IMG/VR virus record: IMGVR_UViG_2648501498_000007
Source of the DNA: a virus
Lineage: Duplodnaviria > Heunggongvirae > Uroviricota > Caudoviricetes
DNA length: 13,363 nt
Reading direction: 5' to 3' (one strand)
The position numbers were made by a program. Each line of letters starts with the position of its first letter. Position 1 is the stretch's first letter. Shown one piece after another: positions 3,001 through 9,000 of this stretch.

Positions 3001-6000
3001 AAGTCAGGAAGATTTGGTGTGCGCACAGTGGATCTGGGGACGAATCGTGAGTCTTTACGAGCAGGCGGCCAGCGATGATGGCGAGATCACTAGACCGAAA
3101 GAACCCAACTGGACAGCATGGGCCAATGACGTTCGCACAATGCGGATGCTGGATGGCAGAACTCACAGACAAATTTGTGAAATGTTTGGGCGTCTCCAGC
3201 GGGATTCGTTCTGGGTAAAAAACATCATGAGTCCGGCAAAACTCCGGGAAAAATGGGATGAACTGGTTATCCGCCTGGGGCGTTCGCCTGCGCAGCGTTG
3301 CGTGAATCACATTTCTGAACCGGACACTGAAATACCGCCGGGATTCAGGGGGTGACGTGTCATGAAAAACATTGCGGCAGTTGGGGTTCTTGAACGTATT
3401 CGCAGACTTGCACCACAGGGGTCGGTTCCACCGTACCGGACGGTGGAGGAGTGGCGGGAATGGCAACTTGCTGAAGGACGAAAACGCAGCGAGGAGATTA
3501 ACCGCCAGAATCGCCAGTTGCGGGTGGAAAAAATCCTGAATCGTTCGGGCATCCAGCCTCTGCACAGCAAATGCTCGTTTGCAAATTATCAGGTGCAGAA
3601 CGACGGGCAAAAATACGCGCTGAGCCAGGCCAAATCCATAGCTGACGAACTGATGACCGGGTGCACGAATTTTGTGTTCAGCGGTAAAACCGGCACCGGG
3701 AAAAATCACCTTGCAGCGGCGATGGGCAACCGGCTGATGGTGAAGGGGCGCAGCGTGATTATCGTCACCGTGTCTGACGTCATGAGCGTGTTGCATGACA
3801 GCTACGACAACGGCAAATCCGGGGAAAAATTTTTACAGGAGCTTTGCGGGGTTGATTTGCTGGTCCTGGATGAAATAGGCGTTCAGCGGGAGACGAAAAA
3901 CGAGCAGGTGGTATTGCACCAGATAATTGATCGCCGGACAGCATCACTGTGCAGTGTCGGGATGTTAACAAACCTGAATCATGCCGCAATGAGTACGCTT
4001 CTTGGTGAGAGGATTATGGACCGCATGACCATGAACGGTGGTCGATGGGTGACGTTTAACTGGGATAGCTGGCGTCCAAATGTCAGCAATATGAGGGTTG
4101 TGAAGTAATTTTGTCCGGAGGAAATTTTAATGGAAACCGTATCTGATGCACTGAAAGCACTGAAAAAAGCCTCTTCACATGTGGTGGCAGCTCGCCTTGG
4201 AATCAGTCGTGAAGAGGCTGTCAACGAGCTGTGGGAACTCAAAAGAAATGGCGTCGTTGATAAAACTGGTCACACCTGGTTTCTGGCTGGCGAAGGTGAA
4301 TCCCGGGTAACCGAAGAGCGGCCAGTAAAATCTGAAGCACAGGATATGCTGACCGGGGAGGTCGAACAAAAAGTTACCGCAGACATGATGATTGAGTTTA
4401 TCGGTCAGGATGGGGCTAAAACGTGTGAGGAACTGGCGGGTAAGTTCGGTGTCAGTACTCGCAAGGTTGCTTCCACGCTGGCGGTGGTAACCGCAACGGG
4501 GCGGCTGGCACGCGTTAATCAGAACGGTAAATTTCGTTACTGCATGCCGGGCGATAATTTACCAGCAGAGCCGAAAGCCGCGCTGGTAACGGAAAGTGAT
4601 GGTAAGGCCTTTCCTCAGCCAGCAGGTGCTGCGTTACCAGGCCGGGAAGCCGCAACACAGGAAGAAATTAAAACAGAAACTGTGGCGGACATTGTGCAGT
4701 CGTTGCCATCGTTTACCGAAACGCAAGCAGATGAGCTGATTTTTCCGTCCCTGCGCAGGGCAAACCTGGCGCTGCGCAGGGCGAAAAGTGATGTTCAGAA
4801 GTGGGAGCGAGTCTGCGCCGCGCTGCGGGAGCTGAACAAGCACCGGGATATTGTTCGACAGATTACTGATTCTTCCCGCCGTGTTGTATCGGAAAAGTGA
4901 TTGCCGGAGGCGCTTATGGCAAAAGTATTTACACAAGAAGAGCGGGAAAAAATTAAAGGGCAGGTTGTTGAGCTAGTACGCCGGAGTGGGCGCGAGACGT
5001 TACGGCAACTGGAAGCCAAGACAGGTGCGACAAGATATCTGATGAGTGTTCTCGCCAGAGAGCTGGTTGCCAGTGGCGATGTATACAACTCTGGTTACGG
5101 GTTATTCCCGTCTGAACAGGCGCGTAAGGACTGGCAAAACGCCCGCAAAAAACTCTCAAGGGCAAATCTGAAGAAACCATCTGTGGTTGATCCTGACCTT
5201 ATCTGGCCATTACCAGACGGAGAAATACGCCGCTACGACAGGCGTCAAAACATAATCTGTAGCGAGTGCCGGAAGAGCGAAGCTATGCAGCGTGTACTGG
5301 CTTTCTATCAGGGTAATTTTCAGAAGGTGCTGTTGTGAGCCAAATTAACAATCGGAACTTCGTGAAGAGAAAGCATAATCCAAATCTGAATAATTAAGTT
5401 CAGCACTGTAAATAAAATTTAATCCTTAACTGGAGGTATATCTATGTCAAATACACAGAAAATTATTAACACTGAAAAATATAACGAGTGGGTGAAAAAA
5501 TTCTCTGAGCAGATTTTTAAAATTACTGGCGACGAGAATGTGGCAAAAAATGAATTGGAACCGTGGACACCTGAAGGAAACGCACCAAATTATTGCTGGT
5601 GGGAGGTTGATCCGGTTGATGCTGCAAATGAAGCCATGAGTTACCACAACGATTAATGTCGGGAGGCCGCCCGAAAGGGCGGTAAGAAATGACTACATTA
5701 TTCAGAAAAGAATATCCGCAAAAAAGTAGGGCGACAGAATTTTTGTTTCTCATTCTGTTTATCGTATTGATGATACCGATATCCCCTCTAATTTTTGTCT
5801 GGGCAATCGGGAAAATAATTGAGCCAGTTACTGAATTGTATAACGACGTGGTATGGGCGTCATTCAACACACTGCACAATAAAATTAATCCGTATAAGGA
5901 AAACTGATATGGCAACTTTGACAAAAAAAGAACGGGCATGGTTGAACGAATTACAGGAAGTTCTTGATCGCTGTCCATCACCGAAAAAAATTGGCTTTTA

Positions 6001-9000
6001 CACCATTGGCGATAAAAGCATTTACCTGTATGACCTACGCCGCATGGATGAAATCATGGAGGCTCTTGATAATCGTTCGTCGATGGATTGGTGTGTTGCT
6101 GTTCATGATATGAATGCAGGGTTTGATGAAAAGATTTTGTTCCCCTCATCAGTTGAAAGCACTGCGGGTTAAGGAGTAACACATGACCACTATTACCAAA
6201 GAACGTATTGAATTGTTCATTAAATTTTCAGGAGGCGGTACTGTGAGTGAAATTAGCTATCAGGCTTCAATTACCGCTGGCATTCGCATCAAAGGAGAGG
6301 AGCATGGAAATAAAACCAGAGGATGAGTTAAGCAATATCGTTTTATTTCCGGTAAAAGAGGATGACCCTCGTAATCAGGTTAATTTTCTTTATGAGCCAT
6401 CGGAAAGACCATATTGTCATCACGCCTCTGTCCGGGTTGACGAAAAAGAGCGTCAGGTCCGCTGTAAAATCTGCGGTGCAGTTGTGGAACCATTTGACTG
6501 GATGCTCTCTGTGGCGAAAAGAGAAACCAGACTGGCAGATGATGTAAGGCTCTTGCGTCAGGAGGAGCGGGAAAGGCGAAAAAATATAGAAAAGCTAATT
6601 CAGATTGAGCGTAACGCGAAAGCGCGGATACGCAGGGCGACAAAATCCAGAACTGAATAATTAAATTTAGCTCTGTTAAAAATTTAATCCTTAACCGGAG
6701 GGATTTCTGCACCCTCAGAACATCAGGAGGCCGCCCGAAAGGGCGGTAGTTAAATGCGAAAGTTTAAAATAATTATTGAAACGGGAATAGCCGGTGGAGA
6801 TTTCGAGGATGAATTCGAAGTGGATGATGATGCGACGCCTGATGAAATACATGACGAAGCAAAAGATATTTTCTTTAACTACTGCAATTACTCATATCAC
6901 GAAATAAAAGACGAAGAGGAAGAACAAAATGGCTGATTTTGGTTCAACTAAATACAACGTCGGTTTTGAAGAATGGCATGAACTGTTAATGGACTATGCA
7001 GAGTTACGTGGTGGCAGTGCTGCTGATGCTGAAGCATGGCGTGATGATTATGAAGCAGGAAAAACTCCGGTCGAAGCATATTGTGATGAGTGGGGCGATG
7101 AATGAGCGAGGTTAATTATCAGGAAGGGCATGAAACGGCGGGGCAAGCAAAAACAGTGGCATGGCGATATCGCTACGTGAAAAAAAGGCGTTACGGACTT
7201 TCAGGGGAAGTAGTGGTCTGGTGACTGGAAATATGTACCGAAAAAAGAGGATTGTAACGACAGGCCGAACTATGAAATTCAGGCCTTATTCACTGCCCCG
7301 CCAGTCCCGGTTACATCAGAAGAACTGGTTAAAGCTGTGCACTTTTATGAACAACTAAAATGCGAAAATCCACCAGCATCCGGAAACCTGATTACAGATT
7401 CCCAGATAAGGCAATGAGCTACCTGGCGCAGAACGGGCTGATAAGTATGGGGAATGTTTTACGATGAATATTTAGACTAAAGAGTTTGTAACGCTATGTA
7501 AGTGATTTTTTCTGGTTTAGATATTTATATGTCCGGCTAAATTGAGGTGTGTTTAAATGTTATTGCACATTGATTGTAGGGGGAATAATGAAAAACGCAT
7601 TGCAGTTTTTGTTTGTTGCGTTCTGGTTGTTCGCATCATGTATGCCCATCATCTTCACAGCAAGGTATATGGAAAAAGTTGATGTTTTGATATTAATGTT
7701 TGGACATATAAATGCCCTTTTTTTAGGGGTGTTCATGGCGGTCATGTGCATTGAATACTGGCGGTAAATACAGCGAACGCCATTGGTTTAGTTGGATATT
7801 TACTGTGCCGGACAAAAACGGTTTGCGGGGAAATCTTAGTTAAGTAGAATGACTGCGGGTGCTTGAGGCTATCTGTCTCAGGCATGAACACCAAAAGGCA
7901 GATAGAGAAAAGCCCCAGTTAACATTACGCGTCCTGCAAGACGCTTAACATTAATCTGAGGCCATATCTATGCGACACATAGAGATTAGCCTCTTACGGA
8001 CCGAAAGGTCAAGGAGAAGCAGGCTATGAAGCAGCAAAAGGCGATGTTAATCGCCCTGATCGTCATCTGTTTAACCGTCATAGTGACGGCACTGGTAACG
8101 AGGAAAGACCTCTGCGAGGTACGAATCCGAACCGGCCAGACGGAGGTCGCTGTCTTCACAGCTTACGAACCTGAGGAGTAAGAGACCAGGCGAGGGGGAA
8201 ATCCCTCGCCACCTCTGATGAGTCAGGCATCCTCAACGCACCCGCACTTAACCCGCTTCGGCGGGTTTTGTTTTTTCCTGGCATTCTGGTTTACAATTCG
8301 CACGTCAGCCTGAACACCTGACACCTGCTGCGCCAGTAGAGAAAACAGATGGCGCACAAAACCAAATTTCACAATTCTGATACCGACCTTGCCATCCGGC
8401 ATGGGCGGCGTTCACACGCATTTAAAACCGACTGGTACCAACACCCACCATGTACTGAAGAACAGGCCGAATGGCTAATTCATAACTACCGCAGACGCGG
8501 ATACGAGATTAAGAAAGCCCTCAGCCTCGATTATCGTCACTGGATAATCTATGTCAGGCTCCCTTATTCCGAACGCCCACCGCGTCCGTCCCGCACATTC
8601 CAGCAACGCATCTGGAGGTAACGTGCGGGTATTACTTCGACCTGTTCCGGTACCGGAACTTGGGCTGGTGGTGCTAAAACCGGGCCGTGAATCCATGCAG
8701 GTATTTCATAACCCTCGAGTTCTGGTGGAGCCGGAACCGAAAAGCATGCGCGGTCTGCCGTCCGGAGTCGTTCCTGCTGTTCGCCAGCCGCTGGCGGAGG
8801 ATAAATCATTACTGCCATTTTTCAGCGATGAGCGGGTGATTCGTGCTGCTGGTGGTGCTGGTGCATTGTCTGACTGGCTGTTACGCCACATTAAATCCTG
8901 CCAGTGGCCTCATGGTGACTACCATCACAGTGAAACCGTCATACATCGTTACGGTACCGGCGCGATGGTGTTGTGCTGGCACTGCGACAACCAGCTGCGT

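What the first reader, a model, noticed from the sequence alone, without database searches (positions are those of the whole stretch)
5444..7417. Operon of nine tightly coupled small ORFs including two consecutive strongly acidic proteins (candidate anti-defense cargo)
Between the replication genes and hok lie nine ORFs of 40-118 aa with overlapping or abutting stop/start codons. Two consecutive products are strongly acidic: 6754-6936 has about 19 Asp/Glu in 60 residues and 6929-7105 about 16 in 58. Small acidic phage proteins are often DNA mimics that inhibit restriction or other host defences (Ocr and ArdA are the classic cases). Three of these ORFs are below the 60-aa track cutoff. None could be assigned to a family from sequence alone, so this is where uncharacterised functions in this window most likely sit.
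Basis: inference. Interest (0 to 1): 0.6.

Follow-up and report, generated by a model that had tools for sequence, protein, structure and literature searches.

The report
Shuffled prophage accessory genes, acidic pair
This stretch is the ordinary "nin-type" accessory slot of a lambda-like E. coli prophage: six real small genes of unknown function, one recombination scar and one broken gene. Two of the real genes encode very acidic mini-proteins that could be host-protein inhibitors, but nothing here shows it.

Summary
The window is a Rac/Qin-like lambdoid prophage, 99.8% identical to E. coli O111:H2 strain 12A. Positions 5444-7467 lie between the replication genes and hokD/rusA/Q, which is the nin-region slot.

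- six genes under purifying selection (dN/dS 0.02-0.24): ORF1, ORF2 (DUF4014), ORF3, ORF5 (zinc ribbon), ORF6 (DUF7167) and ORF7 (phrog_519);
- one chimeric junction ORF (ORF4);

The acidic pair is real: 20 D/E in 60 residues and 16 in 58. Acidity is conserved across both families. Both fold confidently in prediction (pLDDT about 88). ORF6 is a small beta-hairpin plus helix, and ORF7 is a three-helix bundle.

Neither protein matches any known DNA mimic, anti-restriction, anti-CRISPR or defence family by sequence or fold. The same cassettes occur in more than 20 orders, including the exo-xis region of Stx2a phages, and are joined by a conserved hairpin linker. The ORF6-ORF7 DNA is present in about a third of complete E. 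coli genomes.

Verdict: a common, already catalogued but functionally uncharacterised accessory array. The anti-defence reading is plausible but unsupported.

The parts
5374..5443 (+). Linker upstream of ORF1. It holds a remnant of the 3' end of an ORF5-like gene (5374-5415) and a shared 30-nt leader (5414-5443).
   Evidence: Direct repeats D1 and D4: 5374-5415 vs 6641-6682 (81% identity) and 5414-5443 vs 6679-6708 (90%).
5444..5656 (+). ORF1, 70 aa, acidic (net -7), phrog_4659, function unknown.
   Evidence: phrog_4659 E = 4.8e-51. PGAP CDS WP_000072553. dN/dS 0.11-0.24. SD GGAGG lies 6 nt upstream of the ATG.
5659..5684 (+). Hairpin linker, copy 1: SD-like GGAG, then a 7-bp GC-rich stem with a GAAA loop, ending 4 nt before the ORF2 ATG.
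   Evidence: Exact 20-mer repeat, 0 expected by chance. RNA centroid -15.5 kcal/mol, z = -3.7. The element precedes at least six unrelated gene families in IMG/VR.
5689..5907 (+). ORF2, 72 aa, DUF4014, with one long hydrophobic (membrane-like) segment.
   Evidence: PF13198 E = 5.3e-26, above the gathering cut-off. phrog_1832. dN/dS 0.07-0.24.
5909..6172 (+). ORF3, 87 aa, phrog_1714, function unknown. Its start lies 1 nt after the ORF2 stop (TGATATG).
   Evidence: phrog_1714 E = 9.5e-51. dN/dS 0.08-0.21. Sequence read.
6183..6326 (+). ORF4, 47 aa, a chimeric junction ORF (recombination scar). Its first 13 codons come from an EaA-type gene. From 6223 onward the sequence is the 3' end of a DUF977/LygF-type gene plus the ORF5 leader.
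   Evidence: In alignment A6, 6150-6222 is identical to phage 689R5 (ORF3 end plus EaA start) and 6223 onward is identical to phage 640R1 (LygF end plus ORF5). Homology breakpoints at 6223 (46 loci) and 6224 (18 loci), and a single allele in 21 loci.
6304..6660 (+). ORF5, 118 aa, a zinc-ribbon-like core (C37/H38/H39 ... C54-x2-C57) plus a basic C-terminal helix. phrog_1621. The most conserved gene of the array.
   Evidence: phrog_1621 E = 1.8e-56. Weak Zn_Ribbon_TF match, E = 1.6e-4, below cut-off. dN/dS 0.02-0.06. ORF5>ORF6>ORF7 is the commonest arrangement, 75 loci.
6723..6748 (+). Hairpin linker, copy 2, ending 5 nt before the ORF6 ATG.
   Evidence: Present upstream of ORF6 in essentially all loci that carry ORF6.
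6754..6936 (+). ORF6, 60 aa, DUF7167, 20 D/E, net -15. Predicted beta-hairpin plus helix mini-domain.
   Evidence: PF23768 E = 7.9e-15, above cut-off. AF2 pLDDT 88.8. Family-wide acidity. dN/dS 0.03-0.10. Relatives in Klebsiella, Enterococcus, Pseudomonas and Clostridia phages or prophages.
6929..7105 (+). ORF7, 58 aa, the phrog_519-type domain, 16 D/E, net -12. Predicted three-helix bundle. Overlaps ORF6 by 8 nt.
   Evidence: phrog_519 E = 5.5e-22. 62 representatives at E <= 1e-3. Homologues in about 180 Ackermannviridae genomes, e.g. CBA120 orf183. AF2 pLDDT 87.6. dN/dS 0.03-0.09.
7102..7467 (+). Pseudogene of a phrog_660-type gene. It carries a +1 frameshift in an A-run near 7183-7190 and an internal stop. 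The intact reading frame would end at 7417.
   Evidence: PGAP note 'frameshifted; internal stop'. tblastn to the intact 119-aa gene of phage 689R5 is split over two frames with a stop. Alleles of 365, 366 and 367 nt exist, and the 365-nt allele gives an intact 105-aa protein.

Best explanation
**What it is.** Positions 5444-7467 are the accessory (nin-type) slot of a lambdoid prophage. It is a string of small, individually mobile gene cassettes inserted between the replication genes and hokD/DUF968/rusA/Q.

**Shown here.**
- Six cassettes are real protein-coding genes under purifying selection.
- One ORF (ORF4) is a junction scar and one is a slippage-inactivated pseudogene.
- The same cassettes occur in more than 20 different orders in other E. 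coli prophages, and in the exo-xis (early-left) region of Stx2a phages.
- Exchange points coincide with shared intergenic linkers, including a GC hairpin.

**Inferred.**
- The array is read through from the early rightward promoter as delayed-early message. No terminator-like site was detected on the + strand inside the array, and the single weak promoter-like match is within chance expectation.
- Translation is coupled at overlapping stops and starts. At two genes it is re-initiated from a Shine-Dalgarno sequence that the hairpin may bring next to the AUG.
- The products are dispensable modulators of the host. ORF6 (DUF7167) and ORF7 (phrog_519) are two unrelated, compact, folded mini-proteins whose conserved feature, besides a hydrophobic core, is a strongly negative surface. 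The most likely mechanism is stoichiometric binding to a basic, nucleic-acid-binding surface of a host protein, as an electrostatic decoy or inhibitor. The target could be a nuclease, a defence enzyme, or a nucleoid or transcription protein. This would follow the pattern of TifA or T7 gp5.9 rather than a shape-accurate B-DNA mimic such as Ocr or ArdA.
- They stay together in E. coli phages probably because their coding sequences overlap, not because they must act together.
For: **Identity and layout.** 99.8% match to an annotated prophage, with identical CDS calls.

**Family assignments.**

**Real genes.** dN/dS is 0.02-0.24 for the six genes.

**Scar and pseudogene.** ORF4 chimera. Pseudogene.

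**Cassette shuffling.**
- Phage annotations place ORF5/1/6/7/2 homologues among ead/Ea22-like genes in ArgO145 and in the post-replication region in 640R1 and 689R5.
- More than 20 gene orders in 201 loci, with ORF6>ORF7 together in 120 of 125.
- Homology breakpoints cluster at 5905, 6223, 6275-7, 6723-33, 7150 and 7376.
- The hairpin linker is repeated, stable, and precedes at least six gene families.

**Transcription.** No terminator-like site on the + strand before 8250. One promoter-like match on the + strand (5564-5593, 9 of 12), with the total number of matches below the shuffle mean.

**Dispensability of such regions.** nin genes are non-essential (PMC10695390). Exo-xis genes modulate development (PMC3824215 and PMC8614690).

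**Acidity.** Conserved at defined positions across both families.

**Structure.** Confident compact folds.

**Independent families.** hhalign found no relation between them. DUF7167 occurs without ORF7 in Klebsiella, Enterococcus and Pseudomonas. The ORF7 family occurs without DUF7167 in Ackermannviridae.

**Precedent.** TifA is a small acidic inhibitor that is not DNA-shaped (PMC11322646).
Against: - No direct evidence of any target or phenotype.
- No sequence or fold similarity to any characterised inhibitor.
- High acidity is common in small phage early proteins and is not specific to inhibitors.
- Gene neighbours of DUF7167 in distant phages differ: an exonuclease in Guernseyvirinae, an ASCH-like protein annotated as 'exonuclease' in Enterococcus phages, and a C5-methyltransferase in an E. 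thailandicus prophage. Context therefore gives no consistent pointer.
- The ORF7 family is near-universal in virulent Kuttervirus and Taipeivirus genomes. That fits a conserved host-takeover role at least as well as variable counter-defence cargo.
- Co-transcription and the split-SD idea rest only on consensus scans and an energy fold.
Confidence: 0.5

Rival explanations
1. ORF6 and/or ORF7 are true DNA mimics of the Ocr/ArdA kind. They would imitate the phosphate backbone and block type I restriction-modification, BREX or RecBCD.
For: D/E content of 33% and 28% is comparable to the 29% quoted for Ocr. Acidity is conserved family-wide. The genes sit in non-essential early accessory space.
Against: - No match to the Ocr, ArdA, Gam or other anti-restriction families in Pfam or PHROGs.
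- At 58-60 aa, a monomer is too small to imitate more than a few base pairs of DNA. Known mimics are elongated dimers (own knowledge).
- The conserved residues include many aromatic core positions, typical of a globular binder.
Confidence: 0.12
2. [quoted passage not shown] They would tune the lysis-lysogeny decision, prophage induction or the host SOS and transcription response rather than counter defence systems.
For: Homologues of ORF5, ORF1, ORF6, ORF7 and ORF2 lie among ead/Ea22-like genes in the early-left region of Stx2a phage ArgO145. Exo-xis genes measurably alter lysogenisation and induction (PMC3824215, PMC7093339 and PMC8614690).
Against: No homology to orf60a, orf61, orf63, orf73, ea8.5 or ea22. 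The ORF7 family is widespread in strictly virulent Ackermannviridae, and DUF7167 occurs in virulent Guernseyvirinae and Herelleviridae, which make no lysogeny decision.
Confidence: 0.2
3. ORF7 (phrog_519), and perhaps ORF6, is an anti-CRISPR protein.
For: phrog_519 members in five of six Kuttervirus genomes were scored as candidate Acrs by AcrHub/PaCRISPR (PMC9409062). The proteins are small and acidic, as many Acrs are.
Against: This is a machine-learning prediction only. There is no similarity to a solved Acr structure. No HTH (aca-like) regulator lies next to the genes; the downstream neighbours are a pseudogene and hokD. The E. coli and Salmonella type I-E systems are normally silenced, which makes them a weak selective driver (own knowledge).
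Confidence: 0.05
4. The acidic proteins act inside the cassette. They would neutralise or chaperone the basic zinc-ribbon protein ORF5, forming a three-gene ORF5-ORF6-ORF7 module.
For: ORF5>ORF6>ORF7 is the commonest arrangement, in 75 of 201 loci. ORF5 has a very basic C-terminal helix and the partners are very acidic.
Against: ORF6-ORF7 occur without ORF5 (15 or more loci), and ORF5 occurs without them. ORF1 can sit between ORF5 and ORF6. Distant DUF7167 and ORF7-family members have no ORF5-like neighbour.
Confidence: 0.08
5. The small ORFs are chance reading frames or decaying remnants without function.
For: This is true for part of the region. ORF4 is a chimeric junction ORF with a single allele. 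Positions 7102-7467 are a frameshifted pseudogene. A remnant of a gene's 3' end lies at 5374-5415.
Against: ORF1, 2, 3, 5, 6 and 7 each have many alleles with dN/dS of 0.02-0.24. Each matches a full-length family profile. ORF6 and ORF7 have relatives at 35-60% identity in unrelated phage groups and give confident fold predictions.
Confidence: 0.05

Closest known systems
The nin region of phage lambda ('chain of interlinked genes' between P and Q)
   Same: Position between the replication genes and rusA/Q. A same-strand run of small genes with overlapping or abutting stop and start codons. No terminator-like site detected inside the run and no convincing promoter. Dispensable for plaque formation in lambda.
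   Different: None of the products matches a Pfam family for NinB-NinH or Ren. The cargo here is of the ea/ead type that other lambdoid phages carry in the early-left operon.
Exo-xis / ead-Ea22 accessory region of lambda and Stx phages
   Same: The very same cassettes (ORF5, ORF1, ORF6, ORF7, ORF2 homologues at 93-100% amino-acid identity for ORF6/7) lie among ead/Ea22-like genes in Stx2a phage ArgO145. They are small early genes of mostly unknown function.
   Different: No homology to the studied exo-xis genes orf60a, orf61, orf63, orf73, ea8.5 or ea22. Here the cassettes are on the rightward operon.
DNA-mimic anti-restriction proteins Ocr (T7 gp0.3) and ArdA
   Same: A very high fraction of Asp/Glu (28-33%, against 29% quoted for Ocr) and early expression from accessory space.
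   Different: No sequence or fold similarity. Half or a third of the size. Globular mini-domains with aromatic cores rather than elongated dimers.
Small acidic inhibitors that are not DNA-shaped: enterococcal phage TifA (type IV restriction inhibitor) and T7 gp5.9 (RecBCD/MukBEF inhibitor)
   Same: Small size, electronegative surface, no resemblance to B-DNA, and encoded among hypothetical early genes. This is the functional class I consider most likely (PMC11322646; PMC7617805 listed).
   Different: TifA is a two-domain protein with an SH3-like N-terminal domain, and gp5.9 is a coiled coil (own knowledge). Neither fold matches ORF6 or ORF7. No target is known here.
Conserved intergenic 'linker' sequences at module boundaries of lambdoid phages, and split Shine-Dalgarno hairpins of T4 genes 25 and 38 (both recalled from memory, not checked in the library)
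   Same: The 21-26-nt hairpin element lies exactly at cassette boundaries, is shared by unrelated downstream genes, and places GGAG and AUG on either side of a stable stem.
   Different: Neither recombination at the linker nor an effect on translation was tested. No covariation could be assessed because the copies are nearly identical.

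Membership tests
DUF7167 (PF23768) | Profile match above Pfam's gathering score over the whole domain | tested here: met
   ORF6: 55.1 bits against a cut-off of 24.4, profile positions 1-60 of 60. RefSeq names it 'DUF7167 family protein'.
DUF4014 (PF13198) | Profile match above Pfam's gathering score over the whole domain | tested here: met
   ORF2: 91.3 bits against a cut-off of 23.2, profile positions 1-72 of 72.
phrog_519 small-protein family (CBA120 orf183-like) | Profile match, plus conserved F13, W16, W37, Y41, G44 and P47 in a full-length alignment with distant members | tested here: met
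   phrog_519 E = 5.5e-22. CBA120 orf183 hits the same part of the profile. Alignments A1 and A2.
Lambda nin-region genes (NinB-NinH, Ren) | Location between replication genes and Q, with interlinked small genes | tested here: met
   Gene order. Overlaps read.
Lambda nin-region genes (NinB-NinH, Ren) | Sequence homology to a Nin protein family | tested here: not met
   No Nin family among Pfam hits at E <= 0.1 for any of the ORFs.
DNA-mimic anti-restriction proteins (Ocr, ArdA) | Strong net negative charge conserved in the family | tested here: met
   Net -15 and -12. Family medians -13 and -10.
DNA-mimic anti-restriction proteins (Ocr, ArdA) | Sequence homology to the Ocr, ArdA or other anti-restriction families | tested here: not met
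   No such hit in Pfam, PHROGs, NCBIfam or PDB sequences.
DNA-mimic anti-restriction proteins (Ocr, ArdA) | Fold or shape that imitates B-DNA (elongated dimer with carboxylates spaced like phosphates) | tested here: inconclusive
DNA-mimic anti-restriction proteins (Ocr, ArdA) | Inhibits a DNA-binding defence enzyme by competing with DNA | not testable with these tools
   Needs plating assays and in vitro competition.
Anti-CRISPR (Acr) loci | Adjacent HTH regulator (aca) or similarity to a known Acr | tested here: not met
   Neighbours are ORF5 (zinc ribbon), a pseudogene and hokD. No Acr structure was hit. The only support is a PaCRISPR score for phrog_519 reported in PMC9409062.
Exo-xis / ead-Ea22 accessory cassettes | Occurrence of the same genes in the early-left exo-xis region of lambdoid or Stx phages | tested here: met
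   In ArgO145, gp17, gp16, gp15, gp14 and gp12 correspond to ORF5, ORF1, ORF6, ORF7 and ORF2, flanked by ead/Ea22-like genes.
Known anti-phage defence systems (PADLOC) | Profile match to a defence-system component | tested here: not met
   No hit at E <= 0.1 except a chance-level MTase_II match for ORF5, E = 0.033.

The most novel reading that the evidence does not exclude
DUF7167 (ORF6) and the phrog_519 domain (ORF7) could be two new, structurally unprecedented families of acidic counter-defence or host-takeover inhibitors. The ORF6-ORF7 DNA is carried by about a third of complete E. coli genomes, and relatives occur in most Kuttervirus and Taipeivirus therapeutic-candidate phages and in Klebsiella, Enterococcus and Pseudomonas phages. 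If so, each blocks a nucleic-acid-binding host protein by charge mimicry.
Probability: 0.2. Interest if true: 0.6.

Novelty: already known. Interest (0 to 1): 0.3.

Why it matters
As it stands, this is routine. It is a mosaic accessory region whose genes are already catalogued as domains of unknown function, and the exact proteins have each been seen on hundreds to more than a thousand contigs. Its value is as a well-defined target list.

- Two tiny, confidently folding, very acidic protein families have no known relatives. They are present in roughly one in three complete E. coli genomes and in many virulent phages used for therapy. They are cheap to synthesise and test.
- A positive result would add new inhibitor folds.
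- A negative result would warn against reading 'small and acidic' as 'anti-defence'.
- The region also gives a clean example of cassette exchange at a shared hairpin linker.

Tried and rejected
1. **Homology to known inhibitors or defence proteins.** Pfam, PHROGs, NCBIfam, PADLOC and PDB sequence searches with single sequences and family profiles gave nothing beyond DUF and PHROG families of unknown function.
2. **Fold comparison of both AF2 models.** No significant match.
3. **Rosetta-stone fusions of ORF6 or ORF7 with other domains.** The longer database entries are only mis-called upstream starts or frameshift read-throughs.
4. **A functional link between DUF7167 and exonucleases.** This was suggested by annotations in Klebsiella and Enterococcus phages. 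It was rejected because the Enterococcus 'exonuclease' carries an ASCH/DUF3850-like C-terminus (my reading of the sequence printed; the DUF3850 label comes from another record's annotation) and the other lineages have unrelated neighbours.
5. **Relatedness between families.** No relation between the ORF6 and ORF7 families. ORF1 against the ORF7 family shows a similar spacing of W...G...W...G.P, but the hhalign probability is 0.2%, so homology is not demonstrable.
6. **Literature.** No paper mentions DUF7167, DUF4014 or the RefSeq accessions.
7. **A degenerate scan for hairpin variants.** It was mis-specified, with five Ns per arm instead of four. Its 23 hits are meaningless.
8. **The IMG/VR scan with the DUF7167 profile.** It returned only 100%-identical E. 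coli copies. These were useful for gene-order statistics but not for diversity.

Full report
**Origin and setting.**
- The window matches a prophage of E. coli O111:H2 strain 12A over 99% of its length at 99.8% identity, and 13 other complete genomes over at least 80% of its length.
- The RefSeq annotation of that copy and the ORF list give this order: LexA-like repressor (967-1683, minus strand), cro, YdaT-like, HTH replication initiator, DnaC-like ATPase, DUF1627, DUF977, the cluster in question, sok/hokD (7857-8181; Rfam sok 106.7 bits), DUF968, RusA, a DUF1133 Q-like protein, a DNA methyltransferase and two tRNAs.
- The cluster therefore occupies the slot that in lambda is called the nin region, between the replication genes and Q. 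That region is known for interlinked small genes that can be deleted without loss of plaque formation (PMC10695390).

**Check of the observation.** The run of same-strand small ORFs is real, and the two acidic products are exactly as described. ORF6 (6754-6936) has 20 D/E in 60 residues (net -15, pI 4.05). ORF7 (6929-7105) has 16 in 58 (net -12). They are the most acidic of the 25 annotated proteins in the window. The count and the coupling need correcting.
- PGAP calls seven CDS and one pseudogene ('frameshifted; internal stop') at 7102-7467.
- tblastn with the intact 119-aa homologue from phage vB_EcoS-689R5 aligns to the window in two frames with a stop codon.
- Among related loci the A-run near 7183-7190 exists in 365-, 366- and 367-nt alleles.
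- ORF4 (6183-6326) is also not a gene in its own right. Positions 6150-6222 are identical to the ORF3 end plus the first 40 nt of an 'EaA' gene in phage 689R5. From 6223 on, the sequence is identical to the last 24 nt of the LygF/DUF977 gene plus the ORF5 leader of phage 640R1.
- Homology breakpoints fall at 6223/6224 in 64 loci, and the 47-aa ORF has a single allele in 21 loci.
- Five of the seven junctions overlap or nearly abut. The ORF1/ORF2 and ORF5/ORF6 junctions have 32- and 93-nt spacers.

**Are the remaining six ORFs genes?** Yes.
- Each matches a full-length family profile: phrog_4659; DUF4014/phrog_1832; phrog_1714; phrog_1621; DUF7167/phrog_1997; phrog_519.
- Each has 12-29 distinct full-length alleles in the loci I collected, with Nei-Gojobori dN/dS of 0.02-0.24.
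- ORF5 is the most constrained, at 0.02-0.06.

**Architecture and origin of the array.**
- The cassettes are shuffled among E. coli prophages. In 201 IMG/VR loci I found more than 20 different orders. ORF5>ORF6>ORF7 is the commonest (75 loci), and the window's order ORF1>2>3>5>6>7 occurs in 13.
- In Stx2a phage ArgO145 the homologues lie in the early-left region among ead/Ea22-like genes, in the order ORF5, ORF1, ORF6, ORF7, Ea22-like, DUF4014, HNH. In phages 640R1 and 689R5 they follow the replication genes, as here.
- Within the window there are two copies of a 26-nt element, TC(G/A)GGAGGCCGCCCGAAAGGGCGGTA, directly upstream of ORF2 and ORF6. There are also two copies of a roughly 70-nt stretch made of the 3' end of an ORF5-type gene plus a leader.
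- As RNA, the 26-nt element folds into a 7-bp stem with a GAAA loop (centroid -15.5 kcal/mol; z = -3.7 and -3.1). GGAG lies immediately 5' of the stem, and the AUG starts 5-6 nt after the stem.
- In IMG/VR the exact element precedes at least six unrelated gene families.
- I infer that it serves as a shared linker for homologous exchange of cassettes. It may also act as a structure that brings the Shine-Dalgarno sequence next to the start codon. Neither role was tested.
- On the + strand of 4800-8300 the only terminator-like site is at 8250, after hokD. The only promoter-like match (5564-5593, 9 of 12, inside ORF1) is no better than the matches shuffled sequence gives: 4 found against a mean of 6.4. 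Read-through transcription from the early rightward promoter is therefore the simplest reading, and it is an inference.

**The acidic pair.** The two proteins are unrelated to each other (hhalign).
- *ORF6 is a bona fide DUF7167 member.* It scores 55 bits against a cut-off of 24. Relatives at 37-70% identity occur in Klebsiella temperate phages and Guernseyvirinae, in Enterococcus Herelleviridae, and in Pseudomonas, Clostridia and Bacilli genomes.
- *ORF7 belongs to the phrog_519 domain family.* An exhaustive HMMER scan found 62 cluster representatives at E <= 1e-3, mostly 50-65 aa. tblastn found it in 198 phage records, about 180 of them virulent Ackermannviridae, e.g. CBA120 orf183.
- *The pairing is local.* In E. 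coli lambdoid phages the two genes are together in 120 of 125 loci, and their DNA is present in 1,749-1,913 of 5,426 complete genomes. Outside this group each occurs without the other. Because the two reading frames overlap by 8 nt, with no linker between them, physical linkage does not require functional coupling.
- *Acidity is a family trait.* Median net charge is -13 (DUF7167, 36 sequences) and -10 (ORF7 family, 30 sequences), with specific acidic columns conserved alongside an aromatic or hydrophobic core.
- *AlphaFold2 with these alignments gives confident compact models.* ORF7 is a three-helix bundle (pLDDT 87.6, pTM 0.70). ORF6 is a beta-hairpin followed by a helix (pLDDT 88.8).

**Comparison with known proteins.**
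- Nothing links either protein to a characterised family.
- Pfam, PHROGs, NCBIfam and PADLOC gave no anti-restriction, anti-CRISPR, Gam/Abc, Nin or defence hit.
- PDB sequence searches with single sequences and profiles returned only chance-level matches.
- Foldseek against the PDB gave best E-values of 3.8 (ORF7) and 0.46 (ORF6), with TM below 0.45.
- Source names are uniformly 'hypothetical' or 'prophage protein'.
- The only literature trace is a PaCRISPR/AcrHub score that flagged phrog_519 as a possible Acr in Kuttervirus genomes, without any experiment (PMC9409062).
- Gene neighbours of DUF7167 in distant phages are not consistent: an exonuclease, an ASCH-like protein, a C5-methyltransferase, or an integrase.

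**Interpretation.**
- The descriptive part is secure. This is an ordinary, highly mosaic nin/ea-type accessory array with six live genes, one scar and one pseudogene.
- For the function of the acidic pair I commit to the following, at modest confidence of roughly one in three for the inhibitor mechanism as such. They are small globular proteins that bind and block a basic, nucleic-acid-binding surface of a host protein by charge complementarity. This follows the manner of TifA, which is 21% acidic, is not DNA-shaped and binds type IV restriction enzymes directly (PMC11322646), or of T7 gp5.9.
- A shape-accurate DNA mimic of the Ocr/ArdA kind is less likely, given the size, fold and lack of similarity.
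- The target is not necessarily a defence system. The ORF7 family is near-universal in virulent Ackermannviridae, and the cassettes sit in the exo-xis region of Stx phages. Both facts keep host-takeover or developmental modulation in play (PMC3824215 and PMC8614690).

**Novelty and score.** The families, the exact proteins and the type of region are all already catalogued, and only their function is unknown. I rate the finding 'already known' in kind, with an interest of about 0.3. The upside case is two new inhibitor folds in a third of complete E. coli genomes and in many therapeutic-candidate phages. I give it about 20% probability and, if true, an interest of about 0.6.

Noticed in passing
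window 5659-5684 and 6723-6748: A conserved hairpin linker, GGAG followed by a 7-bp GC-rich stem with a GAAA loop, sits just upstream of the ORF2 and ORF6 start codons. The exact 21-mer precedes at least six unrelated gene families in IMG/VR prophages. It may be a recombination linker and/or a split Shine-Dalgarno element.
   Followed up: partly
window 6183-6326 (junction at 6222/6223): The annotated 47-aa CDS (WP_000207966, phrog_19884) is a chimera. It joins the first 13 codons of an EaA-type gene to the out-of-frame 3' end of a DUF977/LygF gene. Both a RefSeq protein and a PHROG family seem to rest on a recombination scar.
   Followed up: yes
window about 7183-7190, within 7102-7467: An A-run in the phrog_660-type gene exists as 365-, 366- and 367-nt alleles across prophages. 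Only the 365-nt form is intact (105 aa, ending at 7417). This looks like a slippage-prone tract that repeatedly inactivates the gene.
   Followed up: partly
window 5374-5415: A remnant of the 3' end of an ORF5-type gene (81% identical to 6641-6682) lies upstream of ORF1. This shows that an ORF5-ORF1 junction like that of ArgO145 once existed here.
   Followed up: partly
window 5444-5656 (ORF1) vs the ORF7 family: ORF1 shows the same spacing of aromatic and Gly/Pro positions as the ORF7 family (YNEW...G...W..EG.AP..CWW). The hhalign probability is only 0.2% with a single sequence, so a remote relationship is not demonstrable.
   Followed up: partly
L092:2123-3171 (Enterococcus thailandicus); L007:3001-4525 (Klebsiella phage VLCpiS11a): DUF7167 genes overlap the end of a DNA C5-methyltransferase gene in an Enterococcus prophage and the start of a 455-aa exonuclease gene in Guernseyvirinae. 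The two contexts are tantalising but mutually inconsistent.
   Followed up: partly
window 12274-12349: ARAGORN calls this tRNA as tRNA-Met (anticodon CAT), whereas PGAP annotates the same gene as tRNA-Ile. It is probably a lysidine-type tRNA-Ile2 (own knowledge).
   Followed up: no
window 7549-7767: A 72-aa hydrophobic ORF (two predicted membrane-like segments) lies between the pseudogene and sok/hok. It has no PHROG match and no RefSeq annotation. Phage 640R1 annotates a minus-strand 'hornerin' CDS here, which looks spurious.
   Followed up: partly
window 409-537 (minus strand): The YdfB-like 42-aa protein is the third most acidic product in the window (24% D/E, phrog_2061). It sits in the early-left operon next to ydfC.
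   Followed up: no
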